A stretch of 64,000 nt of DNA from Thermodesulfobacteriota bacterium (GCA_046757705.1 JBHHYT010000001.1:237-64236), one strand, 5' to 3'; shown: positions 9,939 through 60,045, numbered from the stretch's first letter. The notes: a model not told the origin generated them from the letters alone. Program-made: numbers and translations.

Positions 9939-11099
9939 ATGAAAGGGACAGAGATTACGCCTCGGCGCCTGGCCCTCGCAGCAGGCGTTTTTTTTATTTG
10001 CCTCCTCGCGCTGGCGTCCGCTTCCCGGGCCGGGGACCTCAGGGCGCGGTTCGTCAAGGACTACAGGGCGAAGAACCTCCCCGCGCTATCGGAGCTGGTA
10101 AAGACCAACGCCCCAGCGATATCGGCAGAGGTCAAGGCCATCTTGAAAGAGGCCATGGCCGATGGCGTGGACTTCGAGCAGCGGATGCGTCTGCTCGATA
10201 TCGCCAGCGCCATGGCGTCGATGCACAAGCACTGGAACGGCGACGAGTTACTCGCCGCCGAGGTCGACGCCATACTGCGCGCCGAGGTGGACAAGGAGAA
10301 GAAGCGTCGGGCCGAGCTGACCAGGCGGGAGAACTTCAAGAAGTTCCTCGGCAACTTCGTTTTGCGCGATAAGGCGGCGCGGATGGAGGCGACGGGGCTT
10401 GCCCCTGTCTTATACCCCCACTGGCTCCACCGGCTGTACTACAGCTGCAAGGCGTGCCACGGCGGCCTGTTCAAGATGAAGCGCGGGGCCGACACCCTGA
10501 CGCACGCCGCGATGCGCAAAGGCAGGGTCTGCGGCAGGTGCCACGACGGCAAGACCGCCTTCAGCACGGAGACGCCGGTGTGCAAGACCTGCCACGCCGC
10601 CGGGCTCGACGAGGCGCGCCGCTTCGCGGACGTCTCCACGCTCGACCTCGACAGGGTAAAGAAGACCGCCGAACGGGTCGGCTCCGTATGGAGCACCGAG
10701 GACCTGCCCCCCGGCCGCATCCCGCTCGACCGCTTCGGCTCCATAGACTGGGTCTACCTGAGGTCCGTGCAGGCGATCAAGCCGGTAAAGTCGCTTGACG
10801 GAGAGGCGCGTGAGAAGGTGCGGGACAACGTCATACTCTTCGAGTCCCCCATGGAGGGCATCTCGACGGTCCCGTTCGACCACAAGACGCACTCCTCCCG
10901 GATTCGCTGCGCGAGCTGCCACCCGGCGCTTTTCAAGAAAGTCCTCGGCGGCAACAAGGTGGACTCAAAGGCCATGGCCAGGGGGAAGTTCTGCGGGTAC
11001 TGCCACGGCAAGGTGGCCTTCAGGTTCGCCGAGTGCAACAAGTGCCACACGACGGGGGAGTACAAGCCCCCGGAAGGCGCGCTGAGGAGAGGGGAGTGA
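9939..11099 (+). CDS. Secreted hexahaem c-type cytochrome (c3/c7 family-like) with N-terminal helical domain
   Basis: 386 aa. Signal peptide. Six CxxCH motifs (CKACH, CGRCH, CKTCH, CASCH, CGYCH, CNKCH) with c3-type distal His patterns (YPHWLH...CKACH, FDHKTH...CASCH). AGAGGTAAAGG Shine-Dalgarno. Confidence 0.8.
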   Translation: MKGTEITPRRLALAAGVFFICLLALASASRAGDLRARFVKDYRAKNLPALSELVKTNAPAISAEVKAILKEAMADGVDFEQRMRLLDIASAMASMHKHWNGDELLAAEVDAILRAEVDKEKKRRAELTRRENFKKFLGNFVLRDKAARMEATGLAPVLYPHWLHRLYYSCKACHGGLFKMKRGADTLTHAAMRKGRVCGRCHDGKTAFSTETPVCKTCHAAGLDEARRFADVSTLDLDRVKKTAERVGSVWSTEDLPPGRIPLDRFGSIDWVYLRSVQAIKPVKSLDGEAREKVRDNVILFESPMEGISTVPFDHKTHSSRIRCASCHPALFKKVLGGNKVDSKAMARGKFCGYCHGKVAFRFAECNKCHTTGEYKPPEGALRRGE

Positions 11100-15657: not shown

Positions 15658-15876
15658 AATCTCCCCTACAGTATACCCCAAACCAGATTTCATGCCATAA
15701 CCTAAGCCTATTCTACACCTTGTAGTACGATGGTTCAAGCAAATAAACAGGGCGTAAGCTCTTGCGGGTTAACGTATATTTAAGATTGTTTATCAGGGGT
15801 TACTATGTTATCTTATCTATTGCAGTTATCTTTGCCATTACCCCTTGTGGGGGCTCTGAAGGGACGCGTAAGGAAG

Positions 15877-16944
15877 ATGGACGAGTACAGGATAGACAGT
15901 CACAAGCTGATGTTTCACGTGGACCGGGTGGACAGGTGGCTCAAGGGAGAGGACGTCTACCCCATATACATGGAGGTCTCCCCCATCGGGGCGTGCAACC
16001 ACAGGTGCACCTACTGCGCCCTCGACTACATGGAGTACCAGCCCAGGTACCTCGATGCGGCCATGCTCAAGCAGAGGCTCACCGAGATGGGGCGGCTCGG
16101 GGTAAAGTCCATCATGTACGCCGGAGAGGGTGAGCCGTTACTGCACAAGGATATCGCCGGGATAATAAACCACACCAAAAGCTCCGGCATAGACGTCGCC
16201 ATTACCTCCAACGGCGCGCTCTTCAACGAAGAGCTGATGCGCGCCACCCTCGCCTCGATAACATGGATAAAGGTCAGCATAAACGCCGCCACGAAGGAGA
16301 CCTACGCGAAGGTCCACAGGACGAAGGAGGAGGACTTCGTAAAGGTCATCTCCAACATCCGCGCGGCGGTGGAGTTCAGGAAAGAGCGCGGCATCTCCTC
16401 CACCATCGGCATGCAGATGATACTTCTGCCGGATAACTTCGAGGAGGCGGTCCCTCTGGCCCGCAAGGCGAAGGAGATAGGGGCCGACTACCTCGTCATA
16501 AAGTCATACTCACAGCACCTCAAGAGCCTTACGCACAGGTACGAGGAGTTCCGGTACAGCGACTACTACTACCTCAGCGACGAGCTGGACAAGATCTCCG
16601 ACGACAACTTCAAGGTGGTCTTCAGGAAGAACGCCATGGAAAAGCTCTCGGAGAGCAACAGGGCATACGAAAAGTGCCTTGCGCTGCCCTTCTGGTCTTA
16701 CGTAGACTCCGGGGGCGGGGTGTGGGGCTGCAGCGCCTTTCTCGGCGACGAGAGGTTCCTGCTCGGCAACATAAACGAGCAGACCTTCGAGGAGATATGG
16801 AAGGGCGGGCGCAGGAAGAAGGTCATGGAGTTCGTCGCAAAGGAGCTCGATACGAGCGAGTGCCGCAAGAACTGCAGGATGGACGAGATCAACCGTTACC
16901 TCTGGGAGCTTAAAAACCCTTCCTCACACGTAAACTTTATCTAA
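15877..16944 (+). CDS. Radical SAM enzyme with C-terminal Cys cluster (SPASM/twitch-like)
   Basis: CNHRCTYC (CxxxCxxC) and GEGEPLL. C-terminal Cys cluster (WGCSAF, ECRKNCRMDE). Start at ATG 15877 (MDEYRIDSHK) with GTAAGGAAG Shine-Dalgarno. Confidence 0.75.
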   Translation: MDEYRIDSHKLMFHVDRVDRWLKGEDVYPIYMEVSPIGACNHRCTYCALDYMEYQPRYLDAAMLKQRLTEMGRLGVKSIMYAGEGEPLLHKDIAGIINHTKSSGIDVAITSNGALFNEELMRATLASITWIKVSINAATKETYAKVHRTKEEDFVKVISNIRAAVEFRKERGISSTIGMQMILLPDNFEEAVPLARKAKEIGADYLVIKSYSQHLKSLTHRYEEFRYSDYYYLSDELDKISDDNFKVVFRKNAMEKLSESNRAYEKCLALPFWSYVDSGGGVWGCSAFLGDERFLLGNINEQTFEEIWKGGRRKKVMEFVAKELDTSECRKNCRMDEINRYLWELKNPSSHVNFI

Positions 16945-16992
16945 AAACCCCCGATAAGAAAAATAAACTCCGCGAAGACCCCGGAAGACCAG

Positions 16993-18006
16993 ATGAACAA
17001 TGAACTCTTAAAATACGGTATCAAGACGCTCACAAGGGGCCTGCTTGAGCGCATGTACTACACCATGCTGAGGATTCGCATCTTCGAGGAGAAGATAGTA
17101 GAGCTGTACCCGGCCCAGGAGATGAAGTGCCCGGTGCACCTGTGCATCGGCCAGGAGGCCATCGCCGCCGGGGTCTGCCTCAACCTCGGGAAGAGAGACT
17201 ACGTCTTCTCCAACCACAGGGGCCACGGCCACTGCCTCGCCAAGGGCAGCGCCATGGGCCCGCTCATGGCGGAGTTCTACGGCAAGGCCGCGGGCTGCAG
17301 CCGGGGCAAGGGAGGGTCCATGCACATCGTGGACGTGGACAACGGCATACTCGGCACCTCGGCCATCGTCGCCGGGGGGATACCGATGGGAGTGGGCGCA
17401 GCCCTGGCCTCCGTGATGAGGAAGGAAGGGCGAGTAACCGTCATATTCTTCGGCGACGGGGCCTACGACGAGGGTGTCTTCTACGAGTCGTTCAACTTCG
17501 CCTCCCTCAAGAAACTCCCGGTGGTATTCGTCTGCGAGAACAACTTCTACGCCACGAACTCCCACCAGTCGGCCCGGCAGCCGGGCTGCAGGATATCCGA
17601 CGCCGCCAGCGCCTTCGACGCCCACGGCGTGTGCATCGACGGCAACGACGTAATGGCCGTCTACAAGGCCTCTCAAGACGCCATCCTGCGCGCCCGCAAG
17701 GGTGGCGGGCCGAGCCTCATAGAGGCCAAGACCTACAGGTGGAAGGGGCACGTGGGCCCCGATGCCGACTATGAGAAGGGCTGCCGCCCCAAGGAAGAGC
17801 TGCTCTACTGGATAGAGAAGTGCCCGGTAAAATGCTTCAGGGAGTTCCTGTTGAAGGAGCACGTGCTCAACACCGAAGAGCTTGAGGCGATAGCATCGAA
17901 GATAACGGCGGAGGTGGACGCGGCGGTGGAGTTCGGGCAGCAGAGCCCGTACCCGGACCCGTCGGAGCTTCTGACCGACGTCTACTATACGGACGCAGAA
18001 GGATAG
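16993..18006 (+). CDS. ThDP-dependent dehydrogenase E1 component, alpha subunit (PDH/acetoin-DH E1-alpha family)
   Basis: 337 aa. ThDP-binding motif IFFGDGAYDEGVFYESFNFA...VFVCENNFYA. YR.HG.HS-like region RGHGHCLAKG. Confidence 0.8.
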   Translation: MNNELLKYGIKTLTRGLLERMYYTMLRIRIFEEKIVELYPAQEMKCPVHLCIGQEAIAAGVCLNLGKRDYVFSNHRGHGHCLAKGSAMGPLMAEFYGKAAGCSRGKGGSMHIVDVDNGILGTSAIVAGGIPMGVGAALASVMRKEGRVTVIFFGDGAYDEGVFYESFNFASLKKLPVVFVCENNFYATNSHQSARQPGCRISDAASAFDAHGVCIDGNDVMAVYKASQDAILRARKGGGPSLIEAKTYRWKGHVGPDADYEKGCRPKEELLYWIEKCPVKCFREFLLKEHVLNTEELEAIASKITAEVDAAVEFGQQSPYPDPSELLTDVYYTDAEG

Positions 18007-18019
18007 GCGACGAAACGAT

Positions 18020-19063
18020 ATGCCGTGGACGAAGATATACAGCGATAAGACGGAGTTCGAGAGGGCAAACAAGGCCGACCCGGGGCTTCGCGGCCTGACG
18101 TACAGGGCGGCGCTGCTCGAGGCCACCTCCCAGCTCCTCGAGACCGACGACAGGGTATTCGTCATCGGCGAGGGAGTGGACGACTCCGGTGGGGTCTTCG
18201 GCACCACCCTCGGCCTGCACGCCCGGTTCGGCAAAGAGCGCGTGATGGACAGCCCGCTGGCGGAGAACGGCATAACCGGCATCGCCGTGGGCGCGGCCGT
18301 GGCCGGGATGCGCCCCATACTCGTCCACATGAGGGTCGATTTTCTCCCCCTCTCCCTCGACCAGATAATGAACCACGCCGCCAAGTGGCATTACATGTTC
18401 GGCGGCAAGCTGAACGCCCCCATCACCATAAGGTCGATCATCGGCAGGGGATGGGGGTCGGCGGCGCAGCACTCGCAGAGCCTCGCCGCGCTCTTTACGA
18501 ACATACCGGGCCTGAAGGTCGTGATGCCCGCCACGCCCTACGACGCCAAGGGCCTGCTGGCCGCAAGCGTCAGGGACGGCAACCCCGTCATCTTCATCGA
18601 GCACAGGTGGCTCTACGAGCACATGGGGCACGTGCCGCAGGAGCTTTACACCGTGCCCATCGGCAAGGGTGTCGTAAGGCGCAAGGGCGGGGACGCCACC
18701 ATAGTGGCCATCTCGCAGATGGTGCCGGAGTCGGTGCAGGCGGCCTGCGCCCTTGCCGAGGACGGCATGGATTGCGAGGTCATCGACCCGAGGACGATAA
18801 AACCGCTCGACATGGAGCTGATAAAGGAGTCGGTAGCGAAGACCGGGCGGCTCGTCGTGGCGGATACCGGATGGAAGGACGGGGGCCCCGGCGCAGAGAT
18901 AATAGCGCGCATCACCGAAGAGGCCTTCGGCTCGCTCAAGTCCGCCCCCGTACGCATAAACCTGCCCGAGGCCCCCACGCCCGCAAGCCCGGTGCTCGAG
19001 AAGGCATACTACCCGGGCAAGGAAGAGATAATCTCAGCCGTCAGGAAGATGGTGGGCCGATAG
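18020..19063 (+). CDS. ThDP-dependent dehydrogenase E1 component, beta subunit (transketolase-like Pyr and C-terminal domains)
   Basis: 347 aa. VFVIGEGV...GGVFG...ENGITGIAVGAAVAGMRP pattern of E1-beta. 13 nt after the alpha subunit. Confidence 0.8.
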   Translation: MPWTKIYSDKTEFERANKADPGLRGLTYRAALLEATSQLLETDDRVFVIGEGVDDSGGVFGTTLGLHARFGKERVMDSPLAENGITGIAVGAAVAGMRPILVHMRVDFLPLSLDQIMNHAAKWHYMFGGKLNAPITIRSIIGRGWGSAAQHSQSLAALFTNIPGLKVVMPATPYDAKGLLAASVRDGNPVIFIEHRWLYEHMGHVPQELYTVPIGKGVVRRKGGDATIVAISQMVPESVQAACALAEDGMDCEVIDPRTIKPLDMELIKESVAKTGRLVVADTGWKDGGPGAEIIARITEEAFGSLKSAPVRINLPEAPTPASPVLEKAYYPGKEEIISAVRKMVGR

Positions 19064-19141
19064 GCGCCGCACCTGAAGAGGGCCTGAACTCCGGGGCCGT
19101 CCTTACCCTGAACCTGAACTAAACTAAAACCACGGACCTTT

Positions 19142-19942
19142 ATGGCGAAGAAGAGCGCCCCCGGCAGGCCGCGCAGGGCCGCCGGAGGCAAAAAACCGAG
19201 CATCTCCATTATCGTCCCCTGCCTGAACGAGGAGGGCAACCTCAGGGGTACGGTCGCCTGCATAAAAGAGGCGCTCGAGGCCACCGGACGCTTCAGCTCC
19301 CACGAGATCCTCATCTTCGACGACTGCAGCACCGACGGTACCGGCAGGCTGGCCGATGAGATAAGCAAGGAGGAACGCGGGGTAAAGGTCATACACAACC
19401 CGAAGAACATGGGCTTCGGATACAACTATAGCGAGGGCGTCAGGCTGGCCACCAAGGACTACATCATCATGGTGCCCGGAGACAACGAGATACCCGCCGG
19501 GGCGATAAGCACCGTCTTCGCCCTTACCGGCACGGCGGACTGCGTCATCCCGTATACCGCCAACACCTCGGTGCGGCCCCCGTCCCGCAGGGCCATCTCA
19601 TGGCTCTTCGTAACGCTCATGAACGCGGCCTTCGGCCTGAGGCTCAGGTACTATAACGGGACGTGCGTGATAAAGAGCTCGCTTCTCAAGAAGGTGCCGC
19701 TCAAGACCTGGGGGTTCGCCTACATGGCGGCCATACTCGTGCGCCTCATACGCTCCGGGGCGAGCTACACGGAGACCGGGGTCAATATCCGCTCCCGCGA
19801 TTCCGGCAAGACGAAGGCCTTTACCGTAAAGAACATCTTCAGCGTCGTAAGCGCCCTGGCCACCCTCTTCTGGGAGGTCAGGATAAGGGACAGGGCGCTC
19901 TACAGCGCCGGGGCGCGCAGGGTCGAGGCCGGGACGCGCTGA
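19142..19942 (+). CDS. Family 2 glycosyltransferase (polyprenyl-phosphate glycosyltransferase-like)
   Basis: 266 aa. ISIIVPCLNEEGNL...IFDDCSTDGT...MVPGDNE. GT-A DxD fold with basic N-terminal tail. Confidence 0.75.
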   Translation: MAKKSAPGRPRRAAGGKKPSISIIVPCLNEEGNLRGTVACIKEALEATGRFSSHEILIFDDCSTDGTGRLADEISKEERGVKVIHNPKNMGFGYNYSEGVRLATKDYIIMVPGDNEIPAGAISTVFALTGTADCVIPYTANTSVRPPSRRAISWLFVTLMNAAFGLRLRYYNGTCVIKSSLLKKVPLKTWGFAYMAAILVRLIRSGASYTETGVNIRSRDSGKTKAFTVKNIFSVVSALATLFWEVRIRDRALYSAGARRVEAGTR

Positions 19943-20000
19943 GCGCGAGATTCCCCCCTCACCCCGGCATCGTGGATGAAGGAGAAGATGCCGCTACGGT

Positions 20001-21527
20001 ATGCGGTATACACAAGAGAATGAAATGTATGGAGTCAACGTATTGAAGATACTTTTCGTAATAAAGGACGTGGAGTACATCGACCCGATGGGCATAATGC
20101 TCCTCTCCGCCCTGGCCAAGGAGAAGGGGCATGTCACGAGCGCCGCGGTGCTCGCCGAGAGGAACCTCTCTACCCGCATAAGGGCGTTCAAGCCTGACGT
20201 CGTGGCGTTCAGCGCCAAGACCGGCGAGCACAAGTACTACATCGCCGCAAACGACACGGTAAAGTCGATCGATGAGAAGATATTCACCATCATGGGCGGC
20301 CCGCACCCGACCTTCTTCCCGGACATAATAGAGAAGCACCCCTTCGACGCCCTGTGCGTCGGCGAGGGCGACGACGCGTGGCCGGAGCTGCTCGACGCGC
20401 TCGAAGCCAGGAAGGGCATCGACTCCATCCCGAACATCGTTACCCGGAAGAACTTCAAGAAGGGCTCCCCGCCAGAGATCCGCATGCGCAGGAGGGAGCT
20501 CGACGACCTGCCGTTCCTCGACCGCGACCTCTTCTACAAGACCACGCGCCTGGGAAGGTTCCCTATGCGCAGCTTCATGGTGGGCCGGGGCTGCCCGTAC
20601 AAGTGCACCTACTGCTTCAACCACAAGTACAACATGCTGTACAAGGGCAAGGGCGGACTGATGTCCCGGATGAGCGTCGGCAGGCTGATAGCGGAGATAA
20701 AGGACCTGCAGGGCCGGTACGAGACGCAGTTCATAAAGTTCTACGACGACATATTCGTAATGAAGGACGACGAGTGGCTCACGGAGTTCTCCGAGAGGTA
20801 CCCGCGCGAGGTGGGCGTACCCTTCCACTGCCTGATGCGCGCGAACCTCCTGACCGAACCCGTCCTCCTGAAGCTCAAGGCCGCCGGGCTCGCGTCACTG
20901 AGCATGTCGATAGAGAGCGGCAACGACAAGATACGCAACGACGTATTGAAGCGCAATATGAGCAAGGAGACGATGACGGCGGCCTTCGACCTGTGCGTGA
21001 AGCACAACATACCGACCTTCTCCAATACCATATTCGCCGTGCCCGGCTCCACGCTGGCCGATGACATCGAATCGCTCGACCTCAACCTGCGGTGCAAGGT
21101 CGCCCTCGGGGAGTTCCCTCTCTTCTTCCCGTACCCCGCCACCGAGCTTGCAAGGTACGCCATAGAGCGGGGTGACTTCGACGGCGACTATGACAGGCTG
21201 CACATGAGCTACCAGTCGGTCTCGCCCTTGAAGTGCTTCTCGGCGCGCGAAAAACTCCTCCAGAGGAACCTCTCGCTCCTCTCGACCGTCTGCCTCTGGA
21301 AGCCGTCCTTGCGCAACCTCATCGTCAACCACCTGATAAAGCTCCCCCTGCCGAGGACGTACTTTCTCATGTACTACCTCGTCAAGGCGTATCTCGTGAA
21401 GACGAAGATATACCCTATGCGCTTCTCGTTCGTGGACACGGTAAAGGGCATATACGAAAGCTTCGTCCTCGAGAACTTCAAGCACTCGGAGGAGATGTTC
21501 AAGGACAGGAGGGTAAGGAAGCGATGA
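20001..21527 (+). CDS. B12-binding-domain radical SAM enzyme (class B; probable C-methyltransferase or related)
   Basis: N-terminal cobalamin-binding-like domain (ILFVIKDVEYIDPMGIMLLSALAKEKGH...VVAFSAKTGEH). GRGCPYKCTYC radical SAM motif. Alternative start at ATG 20025. Confidence 0.75.
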   Translation: MRYTQENEMYGVNVLKILFVIKDVEYIDPMGIMLLSALAKEKGHVTSAAVLAERNLSTRIRAFKPDVVAFSAKTGEHKYYIAANDTVKSIDEKIFTIMGGPHPTFFPDIIEKHPFDALCVGEGDDAWPELLDALEARKGIDSIPNIVTRKNFKKGSPPEIRMRRRELDDLPFLDRDLFYKTTRLGRFPMRSFMVGRGCPYKCTYCFNHKYNMLYKGKGGLMSRMSVGRLIAEIKDLQGRYETQFIKFYDDIFVMKDDEWLTEFSERYPREVGVPFHCLMRANLLTEPVLLKLKAAGLASLSMSIESGNDKIRNDVLKRNMSKETMTAAFDLCVKHNIPTFSNTIFAVPGSTLADDIESLDLNLRCKVALGEFPLFFPYPATELARYAIERGDFDGDYDRLHMSYQSVSPLKCFSAREKLLQRNLSLLSTVCLWKPSLRNLIVNHLIKLPLPRTYFLMYYLVKAYLVKTKIYPMRFSFVDTVKGIYESFVLENFKHSEEMFKDRRVRKR

Positions 21528-22012
21528 GGCCGAGGGACCACGTGATATACGGCGGGGCGGCGGCGGCCGCGCTGTACCCGGTGCTCGGCTCGGGCTCGCT
21601 CGTGTTCTGGGGCGCGAGCGTGCTCATCGACGTAGACCATTACATCGACTTTGTTTATCACAACGGCCTGAAGGACCTGAGCTTCATGAGGATGCTGGAG
21701 TACCACGCGGTGCTCAGGAGGTGGTGGAGGAGGCCCGAGTTCCTCAACATCGAGGTCTTCCACACCGTCGAGGCCATCGCCCCCTTGGCGCTGCTTTCGT
21801 GGTGGAGCGGTTCGCCGCCCCTTGAGGCGGCCACCCTCGGCATGCTCTTCCACATCGTGCTCGACACCTCCTCGCTCGTCCTCTCGGGGGTGCCGTTCAT
21901 AAGGGCCCACTCGGTCGTCGAGTACATTATCAGAAAACGCCTGCTCGCCAGACGCGGCCTCGACCCGGCTGCGCTGTGCAAGGAGGCGATACGGGTGATG
22001 AACAACAGGTGA
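21524..22012 (+). CDS. Small His-rich integral membrane protein (possible membrane-bound metal-dependent hydrolase, YdjM/DUF457-like)
   Basis: 162 aa from ATG 21524 (GGGTAAGGAAG Shine-Dalgarno, ATGA overlap with upstream stop). Motifs IDVDHYIDF, VFHTVE, LFHIVLD. Track ORF 21233.. is an upstream out-of-gene extension. Confidence 0.35.
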   Translation: MRPRDHVIYGGAAAAALYPVLGSGSLVFWGASVLIDVDHYIDFVYHNGLKDLSFMRMLEYHAVLRRWWRRPEFLNIEVFHTVEAIAPLALLSWWSGSPPLEAATLGMLFHIVLDTSSLVLSGVPFIRAHSVVEYIIRKRLLARRGLDPAALCKEAIRVMNNR

Positions 22013-22128
22013 CGTTTTTTTTGGTTCTCCCCGGTGCGCGTTTTGGCTTATAATGGCATGGACTCCGGGGCTTGAAGGCTTGCGCCCCCCCGGGGTGCCT
22101 AATAACAACGACGGAGGTTGTCCTGTCA

Positions 22129-23031
22129 ATGGCTGCTGAAAAGGTACTTATCATAAAACTCGGATATTCGGAGACGCTCGTCGGGGAGATAAGCCGGAAG
22201 ACGAGCCTCGGGGACGTACTGCGGAGCACGGTGCTTCTGAACCACTACAGGGACGCCCGCGTCACGTGGCTCGTCGACGAGAAGGCCATCGCGCTTCTGA
22301 AGGGCAACCCCCACATAGAGCGGATAATGCCGTATGACCTTACCTCCGTCCTCCAGCTCAAGGCCGAGCGCTTCGACACGGTAATAAACCTCGAGAAGGT
22401 CGCCGGCATATGCGCCTTCGCGGACTCCCTTACGGCGTGGCGCAGGTACGGCTTCCGCTTCGACCCGGACACCGGCACGGCTCTTGCCTACGACGGCTCC
22501 GAGCACGTCCTCGACCTCTGCCTGAGCCAGGAGGACAAGCTGGCGAACAAGAAGTACTGGGAGGACTTCCTCTTCGAGATGGTCGGAGGCAAGTGGAACG
22601 GGGAGGTGCCGGTCATCGGCTACAAGCCCAGGTCGAAGGAGGTCTTCGACATCGGTTTCAACCACAACGTCGGGGAGTACTGGAAGGAGCTCGAGGCGCT
22701 GATAGGCGGCAGGCACACCATCTCATGGCAGAAGGGGCTCAAATCCATCGAGGAGTACATCGAGTGGATAAACTCGTGCAGGCTCCTCGTGACCAACGAC
22801 AGCCTCGGGCTGCACATAGCGCACGCGCTGGACAAGAAGATAGTCTCGCTCTTCGGCCCCACCCTCTCGAGCGAGGTCTATGTAAAGGACGGGGTGAAGC
22901 TGCTGCCCGAGGGCGAGTACGACTGCATGCCGTGCCTCTCCACCGAGTGTGTAAAGGAACGCCCCTGCATGTACGACATAAAGCCCGGGCGCGTGCTCGC
23001 GGAGATAGAAAAACTTCTTTCGGAGAAATAG
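22129..23031 (+). CDS. Family 9 glycosyltransferase (heptosyltransferase-like, RfaC/RfaF family)
   Basis: VLIIKLGYSETLVGEISRKTSLGDVLRSTVLLNHYRDARVTWLV N-terminal pattern. C-terminal LLVTNDSLGLHIAHALDKKIVSLFGPT (GT9 hallmark). Start ATG 22129 with ACGGAGG Shine-Dalgarno. Confidence 0.7.
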   Translation: MAAEKVLIIKLGYSETLVGEISRKTSLGDVLRSTVLLNHYRDARVTWLVDEKAIALLKGNPHIERIMPYDLTSVLQLKAERFDTVINLEKVAGICAFADSLTAWRRYGFRFDPDTGTALAYDGSEHVLDLCLSQEDKLANKKYWEDFLFEMVGGKWNGEVPVIGYKPRSKEVFDIGFNHNVGEYWKELEALIGGRHTISWQKGLKSIEEYIEWINSCRLLVTNDSLGLHIAHALDKKIVSLFGPTLSSEVYVKDGVKLLPEGEYDCMPCLSTECVKERPCMYDIKPGRVLAEIEKLLSEK

Positions 23032-23033
23032 TT

Positions 23034-23945
23034 ATGAGCGGAAGCGGTACAGATACGGCCATGAGCCCGGTGGTCATACCGGAGCATTACAACTACGTGG
23101 CGGCGTTCCTGACGCTCGCCTGCAACCTCAAGTGCAGCTACTGCATAAACCGCTTCGGCGAGGACGGCTTCATAAAAAAGCGCCTCTCAGGCGAGCAATG
23201 GGTGGCGGGGCTCAACAGGATAGTATCCCGGCCGGACCTGCCCCTGACCCTTCAGGGCGGCGAGCCGAGTCTGCACAAGGACTTCATCTACATACTCAAC
23301 AACCTGAAGCCGGAGCTGAATATCGACATCCTCACAAACCTGCAGTTCGACGCCGACGAGTTCATCGCCAGGGTCGACCCCGACAGGATAAAGAGGGACG
23401 CCCCGTACGCATCGATACGCGTAAGCTACCACCCCTCGGAGATGGAGCTCGAGCCGCTTGCGCAGAAGGTATTGAAGCTGCAGAACGCCGGCTTCAGCAT
23501 CGGCATCTGGGCCGTGCTCCACCCCTCTCAGGAGAAGATAGTCCGCGCGGCGCAGGAGCACTGCAAGGGCCTGGGCATAGACTTCCGCTTCAAGGAGTTC
23601 CTCGGCGAGCACGAGGGGAGGATGTACGGCACCTACAAGTACGAGGGGGCGTGCGACCAGAGGTTCGAGAAGACTGTGCTATGCAAGACGACGGAGCTCA
23701 TCATGGGAAGCGACGGCAGCGTCTACAGGTGCCACAGCGACCTGTACGAAGGCAGGGAGCCCGTTGGTAACATCATCGACCCGGCCTTCGAGCTCGAGGA
23801 CATATACCGCGTCTGCGACGTCTACGGCCACTGCAACCCGTGCGACATAAAGGTGAAGACCAACAGGTTCCAGCAGTTCGGACACACCTCGGTGGACATA
23901 AAGCAAGCGCCGGGAGGGGAGAAGATAAAGGTCAATTCCTTTTAA
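23034..23945 (+). CDS. Radical SAM enzyme with C-terminal auxiliary Cys cluster (SPASM/twitch-like)
   Basis: 303 aa from ATG 23034. CNLKCSYC and LQGGEPSL. C-terminal CDQ...CKTT...RCHSD...CDVYGHCNPCD cysteine array. Confidence 0.7.
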   Translation: MSGSGTDTAMSPVVIPEHYNYVAAFLTLACNLKCSYCINRFGEDGFIKKRLSGEQWVAGLNRIVSRPDLPLTLQGGEPSLHKDFIYILNNLKPELNIDILTNLQFDADEFIARVDPDRIKRDAPYASIRVSYHPSEMELEPLAQKVLKLQNAGFSIGIWAVLHPSQEKIVRAAQEHCKGLGIDFRFKEFLGEHEGRMYGTYKYEGACDQRFEKTVLCKTTELIMGSDGSVYRCHSDLYEGREPVGNIIDPAFELEDIYRVCDVYGHCNPCDIKVKTNRFQQFGHTSVDIKQAPGGEKIKVNSF

Positions 23946-25590
23946 ACCGCACTATCGCCGTGCCGTCCCTCTCGTTCGAGAGCACGGTGAAGCGCCCTTC
24001 GTTGCCGAGTATCACCGGCGCCACGTACTCGCCCGCCTCTCTGTAGCACCCGTCAAGCAGTATGTAACTCACCTTCATGTCATCCATGAAACCGAGCATG
24101 GCGGCCCCGTCCGCCGTGTACGGGAACCTTACGGCAAATCCGCCGGTGATGAGCGAGACCAGCTCCGGCTTCCGGGTCATGATGACGTCCGCGGGGCCGG
24201 TCATGGCCTTGAGCCTCTCGGCGGCGCTCAGGTAGTTCCCGTAGCAGGGCACGGACTTGGCGAAGTAACCGGCGCCGAGGGCATCCGGCGCGGGCTCGGC
24301 GCTGACGGCCGCGAGGCGCGCTGGCATGGTGCCCGCCACGCGCAGGAACCTGCCCGCTGCGCGGGGGGTGAGGACGTCCCTTATCTCGAAGAGGTTAAGC
24401 GCCGCGAGCACGACGAAGGCCGCCAGGACAGCGCCGGCAAGGCCGCGGCCCGGGGCCCTTGCCCCGGCGCGCCCGATGGAGGACAGGAGCCTTACGCCGG
24501 CAAGGAAGTACCAGTAGATGAACGGGAGCACGGGCACGACGTACCTGCGCGCGTCACCGGAGCCGTAGACCGGCCAGACCGAGAGGAGGCCGAAGTAGAA
24601 GAACATGTAGAACTCCCTTACCGACCTCTTCCTCCACGCCTCGGAGACGAAGCCCACGAACGCCGGGACGAAGAAGATAAAGGTCAGCACGGAGAGGACG
24701 GGCCCGCGCGCGGCGTCCTTGGCCTCGGAAGAGCTGAATATGGTCCTGGCCACCGCGCCGTAGTAATAGAGGATGTTCTTCGCGAAACGGCCGGCCAGCG
24801 GGCCCGCCGCGAGCCCCCCGGAGTCCCTTGCGTAGTAGTCGGCCTGCATGAATATCGACTGGTAGGTAGCCACCCCGTGCGAGTAGATGCTGCCCCTTAT
24901 CGACCAGGCGGCGAAAGGCAATATGGCGAGCGCGCCGAAGAGGATGAGCTTTTTGCCCCATGCCGCCTTCTCCCCGCGCCCGGAGACGGCGCCGTAAAGG
25001 AGCGCGGCGGCCATGGCCGCCCAGAGCGTAATACCTATCATCCTCATCATGTAGGCGGCCGCCGTAAGCGCCGAGACCACTACGAGCAGGCGCGCGCTGA
25101 GGCCGCGCCTCTCGTACCTCCCGAACCAATGGAGCGCGAGCAGGGAGAGGAAGGCGTACGGCACCTCCGTCATTATCTCCTTGACGAAGAAGAGGAAGTA
25201 GAAGTTCGTGCCGACAAGGAACGCGAGCGCGAGCGCCATGCCCTGCCCGGCCTCCTCCTCGAAGTATGACTTGACCATCCAGACCGTGGCCACGCCGAAG
25301 CCCGCCACGACAAGCTGCATCCACGTGAAGTTGAAGCCGAAGAGGTAGAAGAACGGAGCGAGCAGGAGAGGCAACAGCGGCGGGTACTGCGTGTGCGCAG
25401 GGGCGCCCGGGACGTTTATGTCGGCGAAGCCGTGGCCCGTGGCTATCGACTTGGCGAGCATCACGTAGCTGATCCCGTCGCCTCCCCTTATGCCGGAGAG
25501 CATCCCGTTGATGAGCTGGACAAAGATGAAGACGCACAACGCCAGCACCGCGAGCAGGATGATGTCAGGTTTTTTTTTGAAGAATTCCAT
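23932..25590 (-). CDS. GT-C fold membrane glycosyltransferase, ArnT/PMT_2-like (GT39/GT83-type)
   Basis: 552 aa, about 11-13 TM. N-terminal loop GGDGISYVMLAKSIATGHGFADINVPGAPAHTQYPPLLPLLLAPFFYLFG matches the ArnT/PMT_2 pattern (D..Y...A..G.W....KPPL). 3' end overlaps the convergent radical SAM gene by 14 nt. Confidence 0.65.
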   Translation of the reverse strand: MEFFKKKPDIILLAVLALCVFIFVQLINGMLSGIRGGDGISYVMLAKSIATGHGFADINVPGAPAHTQYPPLLPLLLAPFFYLFGFNFTWMQLVVAGFGVATVWMVKSYFEEEAGQGMALALAFLVGTNFYFLFFVKEIMTEVPYAFLSLLALHWFGRYERRGLSARLLVVVSALTAAAYMMRMIGITLWAAMAAALLYGAVSGRGEKAAWGKKLILFGALAILPFAAWSIRGSIYSHGVATYQSIFMQADYYARDSGGLAAGPLAGRFAKNILYYYGAVARTIFSSSEAKDAARGPVLSVLTFIFFVPAFVGFVSEAWRKRSVREFYMFFYFGLLSVWPVYGSGDARRYVVPVLPFIYWYFLAGVRLLSSIGRAGARAPGRGLAGAVLAAFVVLAALNLFEIRDVLTPRAAGRFLRVAGTMPARLAAVSAEPAPDALGAGYFAKSVPCYGNYLSAAERLKAMTGPADVIMTRKPELVSLITGGFAVRFPYTADGAAMLGFMDDMKVSYILLDGCYREAGEYVAPVILGNEGRFTVLSNERDGTAIVRFKRN

Positions 25591-25610: not shown

Positions 25611-27347
25611 TTACACACCCGGCCTGCCGGCCCGTTTCCTCATCTCTTCTATACGCTCGATAGCGCGGAGCGCGTGCGCGTCCTGCGCGTCGAGCTTGAG
25701 CAGCTCTTTGAGCTCACCCTCCGCCTCGTCGAGAAGCCCGCGGCTCAAGTATAGCACGCCGAGGTTGTACCGGGCCTCTTTATTGCCCGGCTCGATCTCT
25801 ACGATCTCGCGCGTCTCTCTCGTGGCGTCCTCGTACGCCCCCCTGCCCACGTAGTACGCCGCCAGAGTCCTTCTTATGTAGACGGACGACGGGTTGAGCG
25901 CCTTGGCCGCGGTAAACTCCTTGAGCGCCTCGGCGTACATCCCGCGCTCGTAGTACTCTATGCCGAGGTACATGTGAGTGCTCGTTGAGTACGGGTTCTT
26001 CGCTACCTCCGAGGCGTAGAGCTCAAGCCTGTCGTTCCACAGGCCGTTGGCCCTGTACGTGGCCGCCGAGAACGGGAGCACCGGCACGACGAAGAGCAGG
26101 ACGGCTACCGTAGCCGGGGAGATGGACAGGGCGCGCCTCTTGAACACCTCACGTCCGTAGAAGACGGCCGAGACGAAGGTAAGCGCCATGCCGATGGACG
26201 GCAGGTACATCCTGCGCTCGTTGAACGGGTCCTTTATCGGTATCACCGATGACTCCACCGAGAGGGTTACGAAGAACCAGACGAGCCCCAGAGAAGCGAG
26301 AAGCCCCCACCGGTTGCGCGCGCGCACGGAGCGCACGAGGAGGTACGCGGTAAAGAGGATAAGCGCCGCGAGCGCCACCGAAGAGGCTACGACGGCCGGG
26401 TCGAAAAATCTATCCGTGACAGGAAAGTGGTAAAGGAAACCCCCGTGGACAGGGTAGAAGAGGAGCCTTATATAGGTGACCACCACCCACGTCTCGGTCA
26501 GGAGGTACCCGAGCCTCGATATGCCTCCAGCCTCTTCGAGCTTATGCGCCCTCATAAGCTCCTCGACGCCGCTGCCGCTGCCCATTACGCCAAGCTCCGG
26601 CAGGATGAGGCCGAGTGGGATTATAAGCGCGGCGATGAAGAACGGGGCGAGGTAGAGGGCTCGCCTGGACGCCTTGGTGCCCTCACCACTGCCGAAGAGC
26701 ACCGCTTCGAAGGCGAGCATCACGAACGGTATCGTAAAGCTTATCTCCTTGGTCTTCATGGCAAGGACCGTAGAGGCGAGAGAGGCCGCGTACAGGACGG
26801 CGTGGAGGCGCCGTTGCTTGCCGCCTTTTTCATGGAGCAAGCGCGCCTTCATGAAGCAGAGCACGGCGGCGAGGTAGAAGAGAGCCGCCAGTGAGGCGTA
26901 CCTCTGGCTTATGTAGGTGACGGCCTGCACCTGCATGGGATGGACGAGGAAGATGGCCGAGACCGCGAAGGCCGCCGACAGGGGCACGGCAGCGTCGGTG
27001 CCCGTGGACGCGGCGAAGGGGCGCGAGAGGGCGGGCGCATCGAAGAGCGCAAGGACGAGAAAGAAGACTAGCACAGAGTTGGATATGTGGATGGCTATGT
27101 TTACGAGGTGGTAGCCGAAGGTGTGCAGACCGTTGACGGAATAGTTGAGCGCGAACGAGAGGTCCCCCACGTACCTCATCCCCGCGGGCACGAGGAAGTT
27201 GCCAAGCGACTTCACCCAGTCGTTCTCGACGATAAACAGCCTGTCGTCGAATACGAACGGGCCTGAGAAGGCGTTCGAGTAGACCAGAAGCCCGGCGGCA
27301 ACGAGCACGAGCGGGAGGCATATGCGTGAGTAAGACGGTCTGTCCAT
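25611..27347 (-). CDS. TMTC-like membrane protein: DUF1736-type polytopic N-domain + C-terminal TPR repeats (putative GT-C glycosyltransferase)
   Basis: About 579 aa from ATG 27347. FSGPFVFDD motif in first loop. Multiple TM helices. C-terminal TPR array (YLGIEYYERGMYAEALKEF..., YNLGVLYLSRGLLDEAEGEL). Confidence 0.55.
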   Translation of the reverse strand: MDRPSYSRICLPLVLVAAGLLVYSNAFSGPFVFDDRLFIVENDWVKSLGNFLVPAGMRYVGDLSFALNYSVNGLHTFGYHLVNIAIHISNSVLVFFLVLALFDAPALSRPFAASTGTDAAVPLSAAFAVSAIFLVHPMQVQAVTYISQRYASLAALFYLAAVLCFMKARLLHEKGGKQRRLHAVLYAASLASTVLAMKTKEISFTIPFVMLAFEAVLFGSGEGTKASRRALYLAPFFIAALIIPLGLILPELGVMGSGSGVEELMRAHKLEEAGGISRLGYLLTETWVVVTYIRLLFYPVHGGFLYHFPVTDRFFDPAVVASSVALAALILFTAYLLVRSVRARNRWGLLASLGLVWFFVTLSVESSVIPIKDPFNERRMYLPSIGMALTFVSAVFYGREVFKRRALSISPATVAVLLFVVPVLPFSAATYRANGLWNDRLELYASEVAKNPYSTSTHMYLGIEYYERGMYAEALKEFTAAKALNPSSVYIRRTLAAYYVGRGAYEDATRETREIVEIEPGNKEARYNLGVLYLSRGLLDEAEGELKELLKLDAQDAHALRAIERIEEMRKRAGRPGV

Positions 27348-27449
27348 ATCTGGCGTATTATATAACAGCGGTGTGCCGGAGTTGAAATAAAAAAAGAGGA
27401 GGGGCTTTGCGGCCCCTCCTCTTCTCATGTCTTCGTCAGCTCACCCGCA

Positions 27450-27851
27450 TTAAGGGGTGTTGGCGAATACGAACCTGCCGTTGTAGAAGACAATGGAGTT
27501 GTTGTCAGGCAGACTGGCAGCGGTCGTCTTCAGGTGGATAAGACCACTTGAAAGGGTCATGGTACCCGCGCCGTTCAGTGTTATGTTGGCTGAAGGCTGA
27601 TAACCGCCCTCTTTGAGCTTGGCGAGCGTGTCGACCGTCTCGCTCGGGAAGTCGGTCAGATACGCCTGCGCGGCAGTGTAGGCGTTCTTTGTGTCTGAAT
27701 CGAGCGCTGTCTTGTAGCCCCTCAGTCTGTACTTCGAGAACTGCGGGATGGCTATAGCGGCCAGTATCGCTATGATAGCAACGACTATCAGGAGCTCGAC
27801 CAGCGTGAAGCCCTCTTCCCTCTTGATCCTTTTGAGCATGTCTTGTAGCAT
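27450..27851 (-). CDS. pilA: Type IVa major pilin PilA (Geobacter-like N-terminal domain, Cys-less)
   Basis: Prepilin leader ...KREEG|FTLVELLIVVAIIAILAAIAIPQFSKYR. First about 60 mature residues closely resemble G. sulfurreducens PilA-N as recalled. No Cys. S/T-rich C-terminal half. GGAGG Shine-Dalgarno. Confidence 0.85.
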   Translation of the reverse strand: MLQDMLKRIKREEGFTLVELLIVVAIIAILAAIAIPQFSKYRLRGYKTALDSDTKNAYTAAQAYLTDFPSETVDTLAKLKEGGYQPSANITLNGAGTMTLSSGLIHLKTTAASLPDNNSIVFYNGRFVFANTP

Positions 27852-59994: not shown

Positions 59995-60045
59995 CTTTCA
60001 CTTCCTCCTTCTCGTTGATTAATTTTTTAAAAATCTCTGAGCCAA

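What the first reader, a model, noticed from the sequence alone, without database searches (positions are those of the whole stretch)
15877..23945. Unusual glycan-modification cluster: three radical SAM enzymes (two SPASM/twitch-like, one B12-binding) + ThDP E1 alpha/beta pair + GT2 + GT9
Eight co-directional, tightly spaced or overlapping genes on the plus strand. They are: a radical SAM with C-terminal Cys cluster, an E1-alpha/E1-beta ThDP-dependent pair (PDH/acetoin-DH type, not a split transketolase), a Dpm1-like GT2, a cobalamin-binding radical SAM (class B, usually C-methyltransferases), a His-rich small membrane protein, a GT9 heptosyltransferase-like enzyme, and a second SPASM-like radical SAM. 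E1 alpha/beta heterotetramers in sugar pathways would imply ThDP-mediated two-carbon branch transfer. B12-rSAM plus SPASM rSAMs imply radical methylation, dehydrogenation or epimerisation of a sugar or lipid. The end product cannot be named from sequence. The combination is not a textbook LPS core, O-antigen or RiPP layout, and I saw no precursor-peptide ORF. It lies directly next to the GT-C genes flanking pilA, so it may supply the modified sugar for that system or for lipid A/core.
Basis: inference. Interest (0 to 1): 0.7.

Follow-up and report, generated by a model that had tools for sequence, protein, structure and literature searches.

The report
Conserved radical-SAM/thiamine sugar-tailoring operon beside pilin
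Eight genes form an uncharacterised operon, conserved in at least eight mostly uncultured anaerobic phyla, that most likely builds an unusual modified sugar on a lipid carrier for decorating cell-surface molecules, here possibly the adjacent pilus protein.

Summary
Eight co-directional genes lie at 15877-23945: a twitch/SPASM radical SAM (rSAM) enzyme, a PDH-type E1 alpha/beta pair, a DPM1/GtrB-like GT2, a B12-domain rSAM, a small His/Asp-rich protein, a GT9-fold transferase and a second Cys-rich rSAM.

It is not a chance neighbourhood. All 32 related Thermodesulfobacteriota/"Deltaproteobacteria" MAG loci with room hold G1-G5, and 29/29 hold G7+G8. The same genes recur in shuffled order in Planctomycetia, Elusimicrobia, Firestonebacteria, Deferrisomatales, Dehalococcoidia and Patescibacteria.

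Gene fusions tie the parts together: GT2::B12-rSAM, GT2::G8-rSAM, E1a::E1b, and E1a::E1b::nucleotidyltransferase. In phyla without LPS the cassette travels with heptose-type sugar-nucleotide genes, DegT/4,6-dehydratase genes and PMT_2 GT-C transferases. One locus replaces E1ab with a YerE/ALS-type ThDP enzyme.

There is no precursor peptide or RRE, and no E2/E3.

Best reading: a sugar-tailoring module (radical oxidation, ThDP C2 addition, further radical chemistry) feeding a polyprenyl-phosphate donor to GT-C enzymes. The pilin link is lineage-specific (20/24 loci). The product is unknown. This MAG's GT9 copy lacks the invariant KWP motif. No paper on the cassette was found.

The parts
15877..16944 (+). 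G1: radical SAM enzyme with a twitch/SPASM auxiliary-cluster domain. Candidate sugar C-H/C-OH oxidising enzyme.
   Evidence: Pfam Radical_SAM plus SPASM. The best solved-structure sequence matches all act on sugars or cyclitols: BlsE 7vob, DesII 8hzv, SpeY 7wzv, AbmM 8wm2, BtrN 4m7t (names). Conserved Cys are C40/C44/C47 plus C267, C285, C329 and C333 in 46 homologues.
16993..18006 (+). G2: ThDP-dependent E1 alpha subunit (PDH type), with no E2/E3 partner.
   Evidence: E1_dh 2.1e-71. TIGR03182 scores 329 bits, below its 393.85 cutoff. Human PDH E1a matches at 1.1e-49, and the His of the YRxxGH loop is kept.
18020..19063 (+). G3: E1 beta subunit.
   Evidence: Transket_pyr plus Transketolase_C. 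Geobacillus PDH E1b matches at 1.6e-75, with PLAENG and HS(Q)SL conserved.
19142..19942 (+). G4: GT2, a candidate polyprenyl-phosphate sugar synthase (DPM1/GtrB/ArnC type).
   Evidence: Glycos_transf_2 1.7e-22. The longest PDB match is Pyrococcus Dol-P-Man synthase 5mlz (residues 20-236); GtrB 5ekp and ArnC 9hwj also match. The Patescibacteria homologue carries GtrA_DPMS_TM. It is fused to the B12-rSAM in P0106/L009 and to the G8-type rSAM in L055.
20025..21527 (+). G5: radical SAM enzyme with a B12-binding domain. The most conserved gene of the cassette.
   Evidence: B12-binding plus Radical_SAM. Homologues are 50-88% identical across many phyla. Nearest solved structures are AprD4 6fd2 (1.6e-12) and TokK.
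21524..22012 (+). G6: small His/Asp-rich protein. An optional partner that, where present, lies directly beside G5.
   Evidence: No Pfam family. Weak recurrent YdjM hits: 0.079 for the window copy, and 0.007-0.05 in 4 of 10 distant members. Conserved residues are H6, D36, D38, H39, Y40, H80, E83, H110 and D114. The family has only 237 representatives in 1.84 billion proteins. It is adjacent to G5 in delta MAGs, Brocadiales, Planctomycetota, Riflebacteria and Patescibacteria.
22129..23031 (+). G7: GT9-fold glycosyltransferase. This copy carries an in-frame 10-codon deletion of the invariant xKWPxKAWPx motif.
23034..23945 (+). G8: compact radical SAM enzyme with a Cys-rich SPASM/twitch-like C-terminus.
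23932..25590 (-). Polytopic membrane protein, PMT_2/ArnT-like GT-C candidate. Convergent with G8, overlapping it by 14 nt.
   Evidence: PMT_2 1.1e-4, 22.9 bits, below the 26.1 cutoff but covering model positions 3-160 of 160. At least 8 predicted TM. Homologues follow the cassette in L010, L011, L015, L019 and L049 (x3). Above-threshold PMT_2 proteins flank the cassette in L005, L055 and L059.
25611..27428 (-). Polytopic membrane protein with a C-terminal TPR domain, and invariant FxFDD in its first loop. Possible protein-directed transferase.
   Evidence: TPR hits only. At least 9 TM. A 35%-identical homologue lies directly upstream of the cassette in Deferrisomatales L062, with no pilin nearby. 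GT-C membership is not shown.
27450..27851 (-). Type IV pilin (pilA). Candidate acceptor in this lineage.
   Evidence: N_methyl motif 1e-8; sequence GFTLVELLIVVAII. A pilA or pilR match lies within reach of the cassette in 20 of 24 lineage loci.
28219..30534 (-). Second polytopic membrane plus TPR protein, between pilA and pilR.
   Evidence: TPR hits. At least 8 TM. Syntenic in most lineage loci.

Best explanation
The eight genes are one operon. It encodes a self-contained, widely distributed and so far uncharacterised sugar-tailoring and glycosylation module.

Proposed mechanism. Every step is inferred unless marked otherwise.
1. The substrate is a nucleotide-activated sugar, most likely a heptose-type sugar. 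This lineage would take it from housekeeping ADP-heptose synthesis. Phyla without LPS encode HldE/GmhA/GmhB-like genes in the cluster itself.
2. G1, a BtrN/SpeY/DesII-like twitch radical SAM enzyme, abstracts a hydrogen and oxidises a secondary alcohol to a ketone.
3. The E2-less E1 alpha/beta pair decarboxylates pyruvate and adds the ThDP-bound two-carbon unit to that ketone. This gives an acetyl- or hydroxyethyl-branched, or chain-extended, sugar. AviB1/B2, Pau11/12 and YerE are proposed or shown to do the same.
4. The GT2 (G4) transfers the sugar to polyprenyl phosphate.
5. The B12-domain rSAM (G5) and the compact rSAM (G8) carry out further radical chemistry at the carrier stage: methylation, rearrangement or epimerisation. 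Each of the two is found fused to the GT2 in other genomes.
6. G6 may be a metal-dependent accessory hydrolase.
7. The GT9 enzyme (G7) adds a heptose-type sugar, or uses one as acceptor.
8. The lipid-linked donor is flipped and used outside the cytoplasm by PMT_2-type GT-C and/or membrane-TPR transferases. In this lineage the acceptor is probably the adjacent type IV pilin.

Shown here: gene content, domain and fold assignments, cross-phylum conservation, fusions and neighbourhoods.
Inferred: substrate, every reaction, order of steps and acceptor.
For: Conservation:
- In the home lineage, 32/32 loci with room hold G1-G5 and 29/29 hold G7+G8.
- The same genes occur in a different order in Planctomycetia (L058, L059, L061), Elusimicrobia (L055), Firestonebacteria (L057), Deferrisomatales (L062), Dehalococcoidaceae (L063) and Patescibacteria (L005).

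Fusions:
- GT2::B12-rSAM (P0106/L009).
- GT2::G8-rSAM (L055).
- E1a::E1b (L009).
- E1a::E1b::rfaE_dom_II-like nucleotidyltransferase (L091).

Sugar context:
- HldE-like, GmhA/GmhB-like, SDR, PHP and HAD genes in L005, L009, L063 and L091.
- DegT and PseB-like 4,6-dehydratase genes.
- Wzm/Wzt, Wzy and Wzz in L090.

ThDP step:
- L090 has an ALS/YerE-type ThDP enzyme instead of E1ab.
- PMC4753412 states that AviB1/AviB2 and Pau11/12 (E1ab-like) and YerE install C-4 acetyl branches from pyruvate.

Individual proteins:
- G1's nearest solved relatives are sugar- or cyclitol-acting rSAMs, and it has one conserved four-Cys auxiliary site.
- G4 resembles Dol-P-Man synthase, GtrB and ArnC.
- PMT_2 GT-Cs neighbour the cassette in four phyla.
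- G7 has the GT9 fold.

Framework: the three-component concept, including auxiliary enzymes that act on the lipid-linked donor, is described in PMC11127046.

Negative findings: no E2/E3, no precursor peptide and no RRE.
Against: - No member of any of the rSAM, GT2, GT9 or G6 families in this cassette has been characterised. All NCBIfam hits are far below their curated cutoffs.
- The heptose-pathway look-alikes in other phyla also score below cutoffs, and their HldE-like protein has the reverse domain order.
- G4 has no predicted TM helix, and its matches to DPMS/GtrB/ArnC are weak (E 3e-7 to 7e-4).
- No flippase is identifiable in the window.
- The window's GT-C candidate is sub-threshold for PMT_2, and the TPR proteins are not demonstrably GT-C.
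- G5's closest solved relative is AprD4, a dehydratase, so methylation is not implied.
- The E1 active-site residues cannot tell a carboligase from a normal E1.
- The fusion of E1 to a nucleotidyltransferase may mean that the ThDP step comes before nucleotide activation.
- Pilin adjacency is absent outside the lineage, apart from one pilin-like ORF in Chloroflexota locus L052, and absent in 4 of 24 loci inside it.
- This MAG's G7 lacks the invariant KWP motif.
Confidence: 0.5

Rival explanations
1. LPS inner-core or lipid A modification. The GT9 enzyme adds heptose to Kdo-lipid A, and the ArnT-like GT-C decorates lipid A with the tailored sugar, on the ArnC/ArnT pattern. The pilin neighbourhood would be coincidental synteny.
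For: G7 has the fold of WaaC and WaaF. G4 matches ArnC weakly, and the 552-aa protein matches PMT_2, the ArnT family. The host lineage is diderm; Mla genes are in the window. 4 of 24 lineage loci are not next to pil genes.
Against: The core cassette occurs in Patescibacteria and Dehalococcoidia, which lack LPS (own knowledge). No Kdo, lipid A or other core genes lie in the cluster or window. G7 is missing from several cassette versions (L005, L055), so it is accessory.
Confidence: 0.2
2. Biosynthesis of a small molecule or membrane glycolipid rather than a glycoconjugate donor. One example would be a cyclitol or rearranged sugar lipid made by GT2 plus a B12-rSAM, as HpnI/HpnJ do for hopanoid cyclitol ethers.
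For: The nearest solved relatives of G1 and G5 are aminoglycoside or cyclitol enzymes: BtrN, SpeY, AprD4. G5 hits the HpnJ model weakly (60 bits). GT2::B12-rSAM fusions fit chemistry on a lipid-bound sugar.
Against: PMT_2 GT-Cs recur next to the cassette in four phyla. L090 carries Wzy/Wzz/ABC-2 polysaccharide machinery. No hopanoid, aminoglycoside or export genes are present. All scores to these families are far below cutoffs.
Confidence: 0.15
3. The E1 pair decarboxylates a sugar alpha-keto acid (a Kdo- or DAHP-like ulosonic acid), or builds a new ketose phosphate before activation. It would not branch a nucleotide sugar. The rest of the pathway is as in the main model.
For: E1ab is fused to a nucleotidyltransferase domain and followed by a kinase/nucleotidyltransferase in L091. 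This fits a product that is then phosphorylated and activated.
Against: E1a and E1b are closest to pyruvate-specific PDH E1. Replacement by an ALS/YerE-type enzyme, which uses pyruvate, in L090 favours pyruvate-derived C2 transfer.
Confidence: 0.12
4. A RiPP-like system: the radical SAM enzymes modify a peptide or the pilin polypeptide itself.
For: SPASM/twitch and B12 rSAMs are common RiPP maturases. G8's fold matches SuiB, SkfB, EpeE and CteB as well as it matches sugar enzymes. pilA is adjacent.
Against: There is no precursor ORF in any gap. G1 and G8 have no N-terminal RRE-sized domain. The cassette occurs with no pilin nearby in the six other cassette-bearing phyla. The rSAMs are fused to a GT2, and sugar-nucleotide genes co-occur.
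Confidence: 0.03

Closest known systems
Three-component extracytoplasmic glycosylation systems: GtrA/GtrB/GtrC, ArnC/ArnE-F/ArnT, CsbB/GtcA/YfhO, and the polyprenyl-phosphoribose synthase/MATE/GT136 system with auxiliary epimerases (PMC11127046)
   Same: A DPM1/GtrB/ArnC-like GT2 sits next to polytopic PMT_2-type GT-C proteins. Extra enzymes are positioned to alter the sugar before or on the lipid carrier. Small candidate flippases are present in distant versions: EamA in L091 and a GtrA_DPMS_TM fusion in L005.
   Different: No flippase is recognisable in the window. The tailoring set of three radical SAM enzymes plus an E1 pair is not described for any such system in what I found. The window's GT-C match is sub-threshold.
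ThDP-dependent two-carbon branching of deoxysugars: AviB1/AviB2 (avilamycin eurekanate), Pau11/Pau12 (paulomycose), YerE (yersiniose) (PMC4753412)
   Same: An E2-less PDH-type E1 alpha/beta pair is embedded in a sugar cluster. It is interchangeable in one locus with an ALS/YerE-type ThDP enzyme. A neighbouring enzyme could supply the keto acceptor.
   Different: The known examples are in actinomycete antibiotic clusters or enterobacterial O-antigens, and they use 4,6-dehydratase-derived 4-keto sugars. Here the hosts are anaerobes, the putative keto-forming enzyme is a radical SAM protein, and the sugar is probably heptose-type. Sequence relationship to AviB1/B2 was not tested.
Twitch radical SAM sugar/cyclitol dehydrogenases and relatives (BtrN, SpeY, DesII, BlsE)
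   Same: They are G1's best solved-structure matches. G1 has CX3CX2C plus a single conserved four-Cys auxiliary site.
   Different: E-values are only about 1e-7 to 2e-4, and all NCBIfam scores are far below cutoffs. The substrate is unknown.
Pilin glycosylation by a GT-C using a polyprenyl-phosphate sugar: Pseudomonas aeruginosa TfpW with decaprenyl-phospho-D-arabinofuranose (bioRxiv 10.1101/2020.04.19.049825, listed)
   Same: Large polytopic transferase genes lie immediately beside pilA, next to a dedicated donor-sugar pathway.
   Different: The transferases are not homologous by any test run here. The donor pathway is entirely different. No experimental evidence shows that this pilin is glycosylated.
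GT9 heptosyltransferases (WaaC, WaaF, TibC/AAH)
   Different: The N-terminal domain is too divergent for Pfam. There is a conserved Cys4 motif. The window copy has lost the K-W-P segment. The context is not an LPS core cluster.

Membership tests
Three-component (polyprenyl-P-sugar synthase / flippase / GT-C) glycosylation system | GT2 of the DPM1/GtrB/ArnC polyprenyl-phosphate glycosyltransferase type | tested here: inconclusive
   G4 matches Pfam GT2. Its PDB matches to Dol-P-Man synthase 5mlz (3e-7, whole catalytic domain), GtrB and ArnC are weak. The L005 homologue carries GtrA_DPMS_TM. G4 itself has no TM helix.
Three-component (polyprenyl-P-sugar synthase / flippase / GT-C) glycosylation system | Adjacent GT-C fold transferase | tested here: inconclusive
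   The window 552-aa protein scores PMT_2 22.9 bits against a 26.1 cutoff. Above-cutoff PMT_2 proteins flank the cassette in L005, L055 and L059. The TPR605 family is not linked to PMT_2 by hhalign.
Three-component (polyprenyl-P-sugar synthase / flippase / GT-C) glycosylation system | Small flippase (GtrA, EamA/ArnEF or MATE) | tested here: not met
   None was recognised in the window. EamA is seen only in L091, and a GtrA domain only in L005.
RiPP biosynthetic cluster | Precursor peptide gene and RRE/leader-recognition domain | tested here: not met
   The gaps are at most 116 nt and hold only 25-28 aa spurious ORFs. The rSAM motifs start at residue 40 (G1) and residue 30 (G8).
2-oxoacid (pyruvate/BKD/acetoin) dehydrogenase complex | E2 (lipoyl acyltransferase) and E3 partners encoded with E1 | tested here: not met
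   No lipoyl/2-oxoacid_dh or E3 gene is in the 64-kb window or in the annotated related loci. E1a is below the TIGR03182 cutoff. E1b just passes a subfamily-level model.
ThDP sugar C2-branching enzymes (AviB1/B2 type) | E1 alpha/beta pair in a sugar pathway that transfers a pyruvate-derived C2 unit to a keto-sugar | not testable with these tools
   The context fits, and catalytic Glu and His are retained. The activity, and the phylogenetic relation to AviB1/B2, could not be tested.
GT9 heptosyltransferase | GT-B fold of the GT9 type | tested here: met
GT9 heptosyltransferase | Conserved K-W-P segment at the start of the C-terminal domain | tested here: not met
   It is deleted in frame in the window copy and present in 16 of 16 relatives. 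The family therefore meets the feature; this copy does not.
Cobalamin-dependent (class B) radical SAM methyltransferase | N-terminal B12-binding domain plus CX3CX2C radical SAM core | tested here: met
   PF02310 49.5 bits (cutoff 32.1) and PF04055 62 bits. C190, C194 and C197 are invariant.
Cobalamin-dependent (class B) radical SAM methyltransferase | Methyl transfer via methylcobalamin | not testable with these tools
   The nearest solved relative, AprD4, is a dehydratase. The best NCBIfam hits (ApyD, ladderane, BchE, HpnJ) are all far below cutoff and cover diverse chemistries.
Twitch/SPASM radical SAM enzymes | Auxiliary Fe-S cluster Cys ligands C-terminal to the SAM core | tested here: met
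   G1: a SPASM Pfam hit and four conserved Cys. G8: six conserved extra Cys, and a fold matching MoaA, SuiB, anSME and BtrN.

The most novel reading that the evidence does not exclude
The cassette makes a previously undescribed higher-carbon or C-branched heptose-derived sugar by radical SAM and ThDP chemistry. Part of that chemistry is done directly on a polyprenyl-phosphate-linked sugar, as the GT2::rSAM fusions suggest. The sugar is then displayed on surface proteins, including type IV pilins, of many uncultured anaerobic phyla. This would be the first radical-SAM tailoring of a lipid-linked glycosyl donor, and an anaerobic counterpart of the DprE1/E2-type donor editing pathways.
Probability: 0.3. 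Interest if true: 0.8.

Novelty: new variant of a known kind. Interest (0 to 1): 0.62.

Why it matters
If the model holds, this is a very widespread pathway with no characterised member. The G8 and G7 families alone have more than 2000 database relatives each. It would produce a new bacterial sugar using three radical SAM enzymes and an orphan E1 pair.

It would extend radical SAM chemistry to lipid-linked glycosyl donors. It would give the many E2-less E1 pairs of anaerobes a function. It would also identify a surface modification of the pili and envelopes of groundwater and sediment lineages, including CPR bacteria, Dehalococcoidia and Planctomycetes. Such modifications affect phage susceptibility, adhesion and possibly pilus-based electron transfer.

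The cross-phylum fusions give concrete enzyme pairs to test in vitro.

Tried and rejected
- An exact-sequence look-up of G5 found nothing. The database copy starts 8 codons later.
- Literature searches for the gene combination found no paper on it.
- I tried to show that the two membrane-TPR proteins are GT-C. A PDB sequence search gave nothing, hhalign against a PMT_2 alignment gave probability 23%, and Pfam on eight family members gave only TPR. The GT-C label for them is dropped.
- I tried to tell carboligase from dehydrogenase using E1 active-site residues. All canonical residues are kept, so this is uninformative.
- The G8 fold search gave only generic SPASM/twitch relatives, so no function was assigned.
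- G6 gave only recurrent sub-threshold YdjM hits in a Pfam scan and an exhaustive HMMER search.
- The roughly 40%-identical G5 paralogues in Magnetospirillum and others (L071-L089), apart from a single isolated E1 pair in L079, lack the cassette. They were excluded as a different subfamily.
- A promoter/terminator scan gave no signal above shuffled expectation.
- The RiPP and housekeeping-PDH readings were rejected, as explained under rival explanations.

Full report
**Observation**

The region 15877-23945 holds eight co-directional plus-strand genes. Gaps range from -4 to 116 nt. No plus-strand terminator-like site lies inside the cluster.

- G1: Radical_SAM plus SPASM.
- G2/G3: PDH-type E1 alpha and beta.
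- G4: GT2.
- G5: B12-binding plus Radical_SAM.
- G6: no known family.
- G7: a C-terminal GT9 match only.
- G8: an N-terminal Radical_SAM match only.

Two AlphaFold models fill the gaps.

The source is a Thermodesulfobacteriota MAG. The database copies of G5, G7 and G8 come from a 64,365-bp contig.

**Surroundings**

Upstream lie Rnf genes, a trypsin/PDZ protease, a second GT2, a c7-type multihaem cytochrome and a copper ATPase.

Downstream, on the minus strand, the order is:
- a polytopic PMT_2-like protein, sub-threshold at 22.9 against 26.1 bits;
- a polytopic protein with a TPR domain;
- a type IV pilin;
- a second polytopic TPR protein;
- pilR, pilS, pilC, pilT and pilB.

No E2 or E3 gene is present anywhere in the window.

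**Is the cluster a real unit?**

I scanned one genome per species with an alignment of G5 homologues. I then mapped all window genes onto the 89 loci fetched up to that point.

In the home lineage, labelled Deltaproteobacteria or Thermodesulfobacteriota MAGs and mostly from groundwater and sediment:
- every locus with enough sequence upstream has G1-G5 (32/32);
- every locus with enough sequence downstream has G7 and G8 (29/29);
- G6 is present in 21/29.

The same genes occur in rearranged order in other phyla:
- Planctomycetia: G5-G7-G1-G2-G3-G4-G8.
- Elusimicrobia: G5-G1-G2-G3-G4::G8.
- Firestonebacteria, Deferrisomatales, Dehalococcoidaceae and Patescibacteria also carry them.

Conservation of content with shuffled order across phyla is strong evidence of a functional module. 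The core is G1-G5. G7, G8 and G6 are frequent accessories. G5 and G6 also occur as a pair without the rest in Brocadiales and Planctomycetota.

**Fusions**
- GT2 is fused to the B12-rSAM in a 754-aa protein (P0106).
- GT2 is fused to the G8-type rSAM in Elusimicrobia.
- E1 alpha and beta are fused in L009.
- In L091, E1 alpha, E1 beta and an rfaE_dom_II-like nucleotidyltransferase form one 873-aa protein.

So both of these radical SAM enzymes work with the GT2. The E1 pair works next to a sugar-activation step.

**What the neighbours say about the substrate**

In phyla that lack LPS, the cassette sits beside its own sugar-nucleotide genes:
- a kinase/nucleotidyltransferase whose two domains are most similar to the two halves of HldE, though in reverse order and below the curated cutoffs;
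- a GmhA-like/GmhB-like fusion;
- SDR epimerase/dehydratases;
- PHP, histidine-phosphatase and HAD phosphatases.

Several loci add a DegT aminotransferase and a PseB-like 4,6-dehydratase.

PMT_2 GT-C proteins above the Pfam cutoff flank the cassette in Patescibacteria (two copies), Elusimicrobia and Planctomycetia. One locus carries Wzm/Wzt, Wzy and Wzz.

The GT9 fold of G7 points the same way, because characterised GT9 enzymes use ADP-heptose (own knowledge).

I conclude that the substrate is a nucleotide sugar and probably heptose-type. I also conclude that the product is handed to extracytoplasmic GT-C transferases, which use polyprenyl-phosphate sugars. That fits G4's resemblance to Dol-P-Man synthase, GtrB and ArnC, and the GtrA_DPMS_TM domain on its Patescibacteria homologue. 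This is the logic of the three-component systems reviewed and extended in PMC11127046, where auxiliary enzymes edit the donor.

**The ThDP step**

The E1 pair keeps the cofactor-activating Glu and both active-site His. It is therefore probably active. These residues do not reveal the acceptor.

Three observations argue for a carboligase-type role on a sugar:
- it never has E2/E3;
- it moves with the cassette;
- in locus L090 the same neighbourhood holds a single-chain ALS-type ThDP enzyme instead. That neighbourhood includes an HldE-like gene, DegT, B12-rSAMs and GT2.

E1 alpha/beta pairs (AviB1/B2, Pau11/12) and the ALS-like flavoprotein YerE are the two known solutions for installing a pyruvate-derived two-carbon branch on a keto-sugar (PMC4753412).

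G1 could supply the ketone.
- Its closest solved relatives by sequence are BlsE, DesII, SpeY, AbmM and BtrN, all of which act on sugars or cyclitols.
- It conserves exactly four additional Cys, enough for one auxiliary cluster.
- Their spacing resembles the BtrN twitch domain. This comparison is from memory and was not tested.

**The other radical enzymes**

G5 is extremely conserved. It has an above-threshold B12-binding domain, but its nearest solved relative is AprD4, a diol dehydratase. Its best family hits (ApyD, ladderane, BchE, HpnJ) are far below cutoff and cover several chemistries. Methylation is therefore only one option.

G8's fold is generic.

G6 belongs to a small family of 237 representatives in 1.84 billion proteins. 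It has a conserved His/Asp/Glu constellation and repeated sub-threshold YdjM matches. I treat it as a possible metal-dependent accessory protein.

**The pilin link**

Within the lineage, the cassette lies convergent to the pilA-pilR locus in 20 of 24 loci that extend far enough. It is often separated from that locus by the PMT_2-like and TPR membrane proteins.

The exceptions have housekeeping genes downstream, or three PMT_2 paralogues.

Outside the lineage, no pilin motif lies within 10 kb, apart from one case in Chloroflexota.

A TPR605-like protein sits directly upstream of the cassette in Deferrisomatales without a pilin. That protein family is therefore tied to the cassette rather than to pilA.

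Pilin glycosylation is a reasonable lineage-specific hypothesis. It is analogous to TfpW in Pseudomonas, but it is not shown.

**Alternatives**

RiPP is rejected. There is no precursor ORF, no room for an RRE, and the fusions and neighbours are all sugar-related.

Housekeeping PDH is also rejected.

The following remain possible and are scored as rivals:
- LPS core or lipid A modification;
- a lipid or small-molecule end product of the HpnI/HpnJ kind;
- an E1 role on a sugar keto-acid before activation.

**A defect in this genome**

The window's G7 lacks ten codons (after ...NHNVG, near nt 22675). These encode xKWPxKAWPx in all 16 aligned relatives. This segment corresponds to the conserved K-W-P region of GT9 enzymes (own knowledge). 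In this MAG the GT9 step may be inactive, or the deletion may be a strain or assembly variant.

**Novelty and score**

No paper on the cassette was found, and all homologues carry only generic names.

The overall logic, sugar tailoring feeding a polyprenyl-phosphate donor and GT-C enzymes, is a known kind of system. The enzyme set and the wide distribution in uncultured anaerobes are new.

I rate it a new variant of a known kind, with interest 0.62. My confidence is 0.5 in the overall model. It is about 0.85 that this is a dedicated glycan-tailoring module, about 0.35 for the specific chemistry, and about 0.35 for the pilin acceptor.

Noticed in passing
window 22660-22690 (G7): A clean in-frame 30-nt deletion removes the xKWPxKAWPx segment, which is invariant in 16 of 16 close relatives. 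The nearest relative (88% identical) is 10 residues longer.
   Followed up: partly
L009 4595-6859; L055 14589-16211; L009 124-2091; L091 3044-5665: Natural gene fusions occur among cassette members in other genomes: GT2::B12-rSAM, GT2::G8-type rSAM, E1a::E1b, and E1a::E1b::rfaE_dom_II-like nucleotidyltransferase.
   Followed up: yes
L005 13542-15071 (also L009, L063, L090, L091): An HldE-like bifunctional enzyme has the reverse domain order, with the nucleotidyltransferase N-terminal and the PfkB kinase C-terminal. Both halves score below the HldE cutoffs. It may be a distinct sugar kinase/nucleotidyltransferase family.
   Followed up: partly
L004, L045, L046 (Brocadiales/Planctomycetota): The G5+G6 pair occurs without G1-G4. 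In L004 it sits next to an NTP_transferase, an SDR dehydratase and five further radical SAM genes.
   Followed up: no
window 23932-23945: The convergent genes G8 (plus strand) and the PMT_2-like gene (minus strand) overlap by 14 nt at their 3' ends, which leaves no room for a terminator between them.
   Followed up: no
window 25611-27428 and 28219-30534: Two polytopic (8-9 TM) proteins with C-terminal TPR domains flank pilA. The first has an invariant FxFDD motif in its first loop. No Pfam model covers either membrane domain.
   Followed up: partly
window 9005-9733 and 9939-11099: A second GT2 (Pfam 1.3e-35) and a c7-type multihaem cytochrome lie upstream. The GT2 recurs with about 72-75% identity upstream of the cassette in five related MAG loci (L001, L010, L013, L037; L001 also shows the cytochrome).
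   Followed up: no
window 12949-15738 (- strand): A large copper-type P-type ATPase directly abuts the cassette. It has a metal-binding N-terminal extension and two CxxC heavy-metal-associated repeats in its sequence. The syntenic homologues in related loci carry Pfam YHS plus HMA.
   Followed up: no
window 58276-61714 (- strand): A sulfate-assimilation set: a fused ATP-sulfurylase/APS kinase, an inositol-monophosphatase/CysQ-like protein and a PAPS reductase.
   Followed up: no
window 17008-18384, 19959-20828, 21374-22129 (- strand): Long antisense ORFs lie opposite the cassette genes. They are products of the roughly 60% G+C content and are not genes.
   Followed up: no
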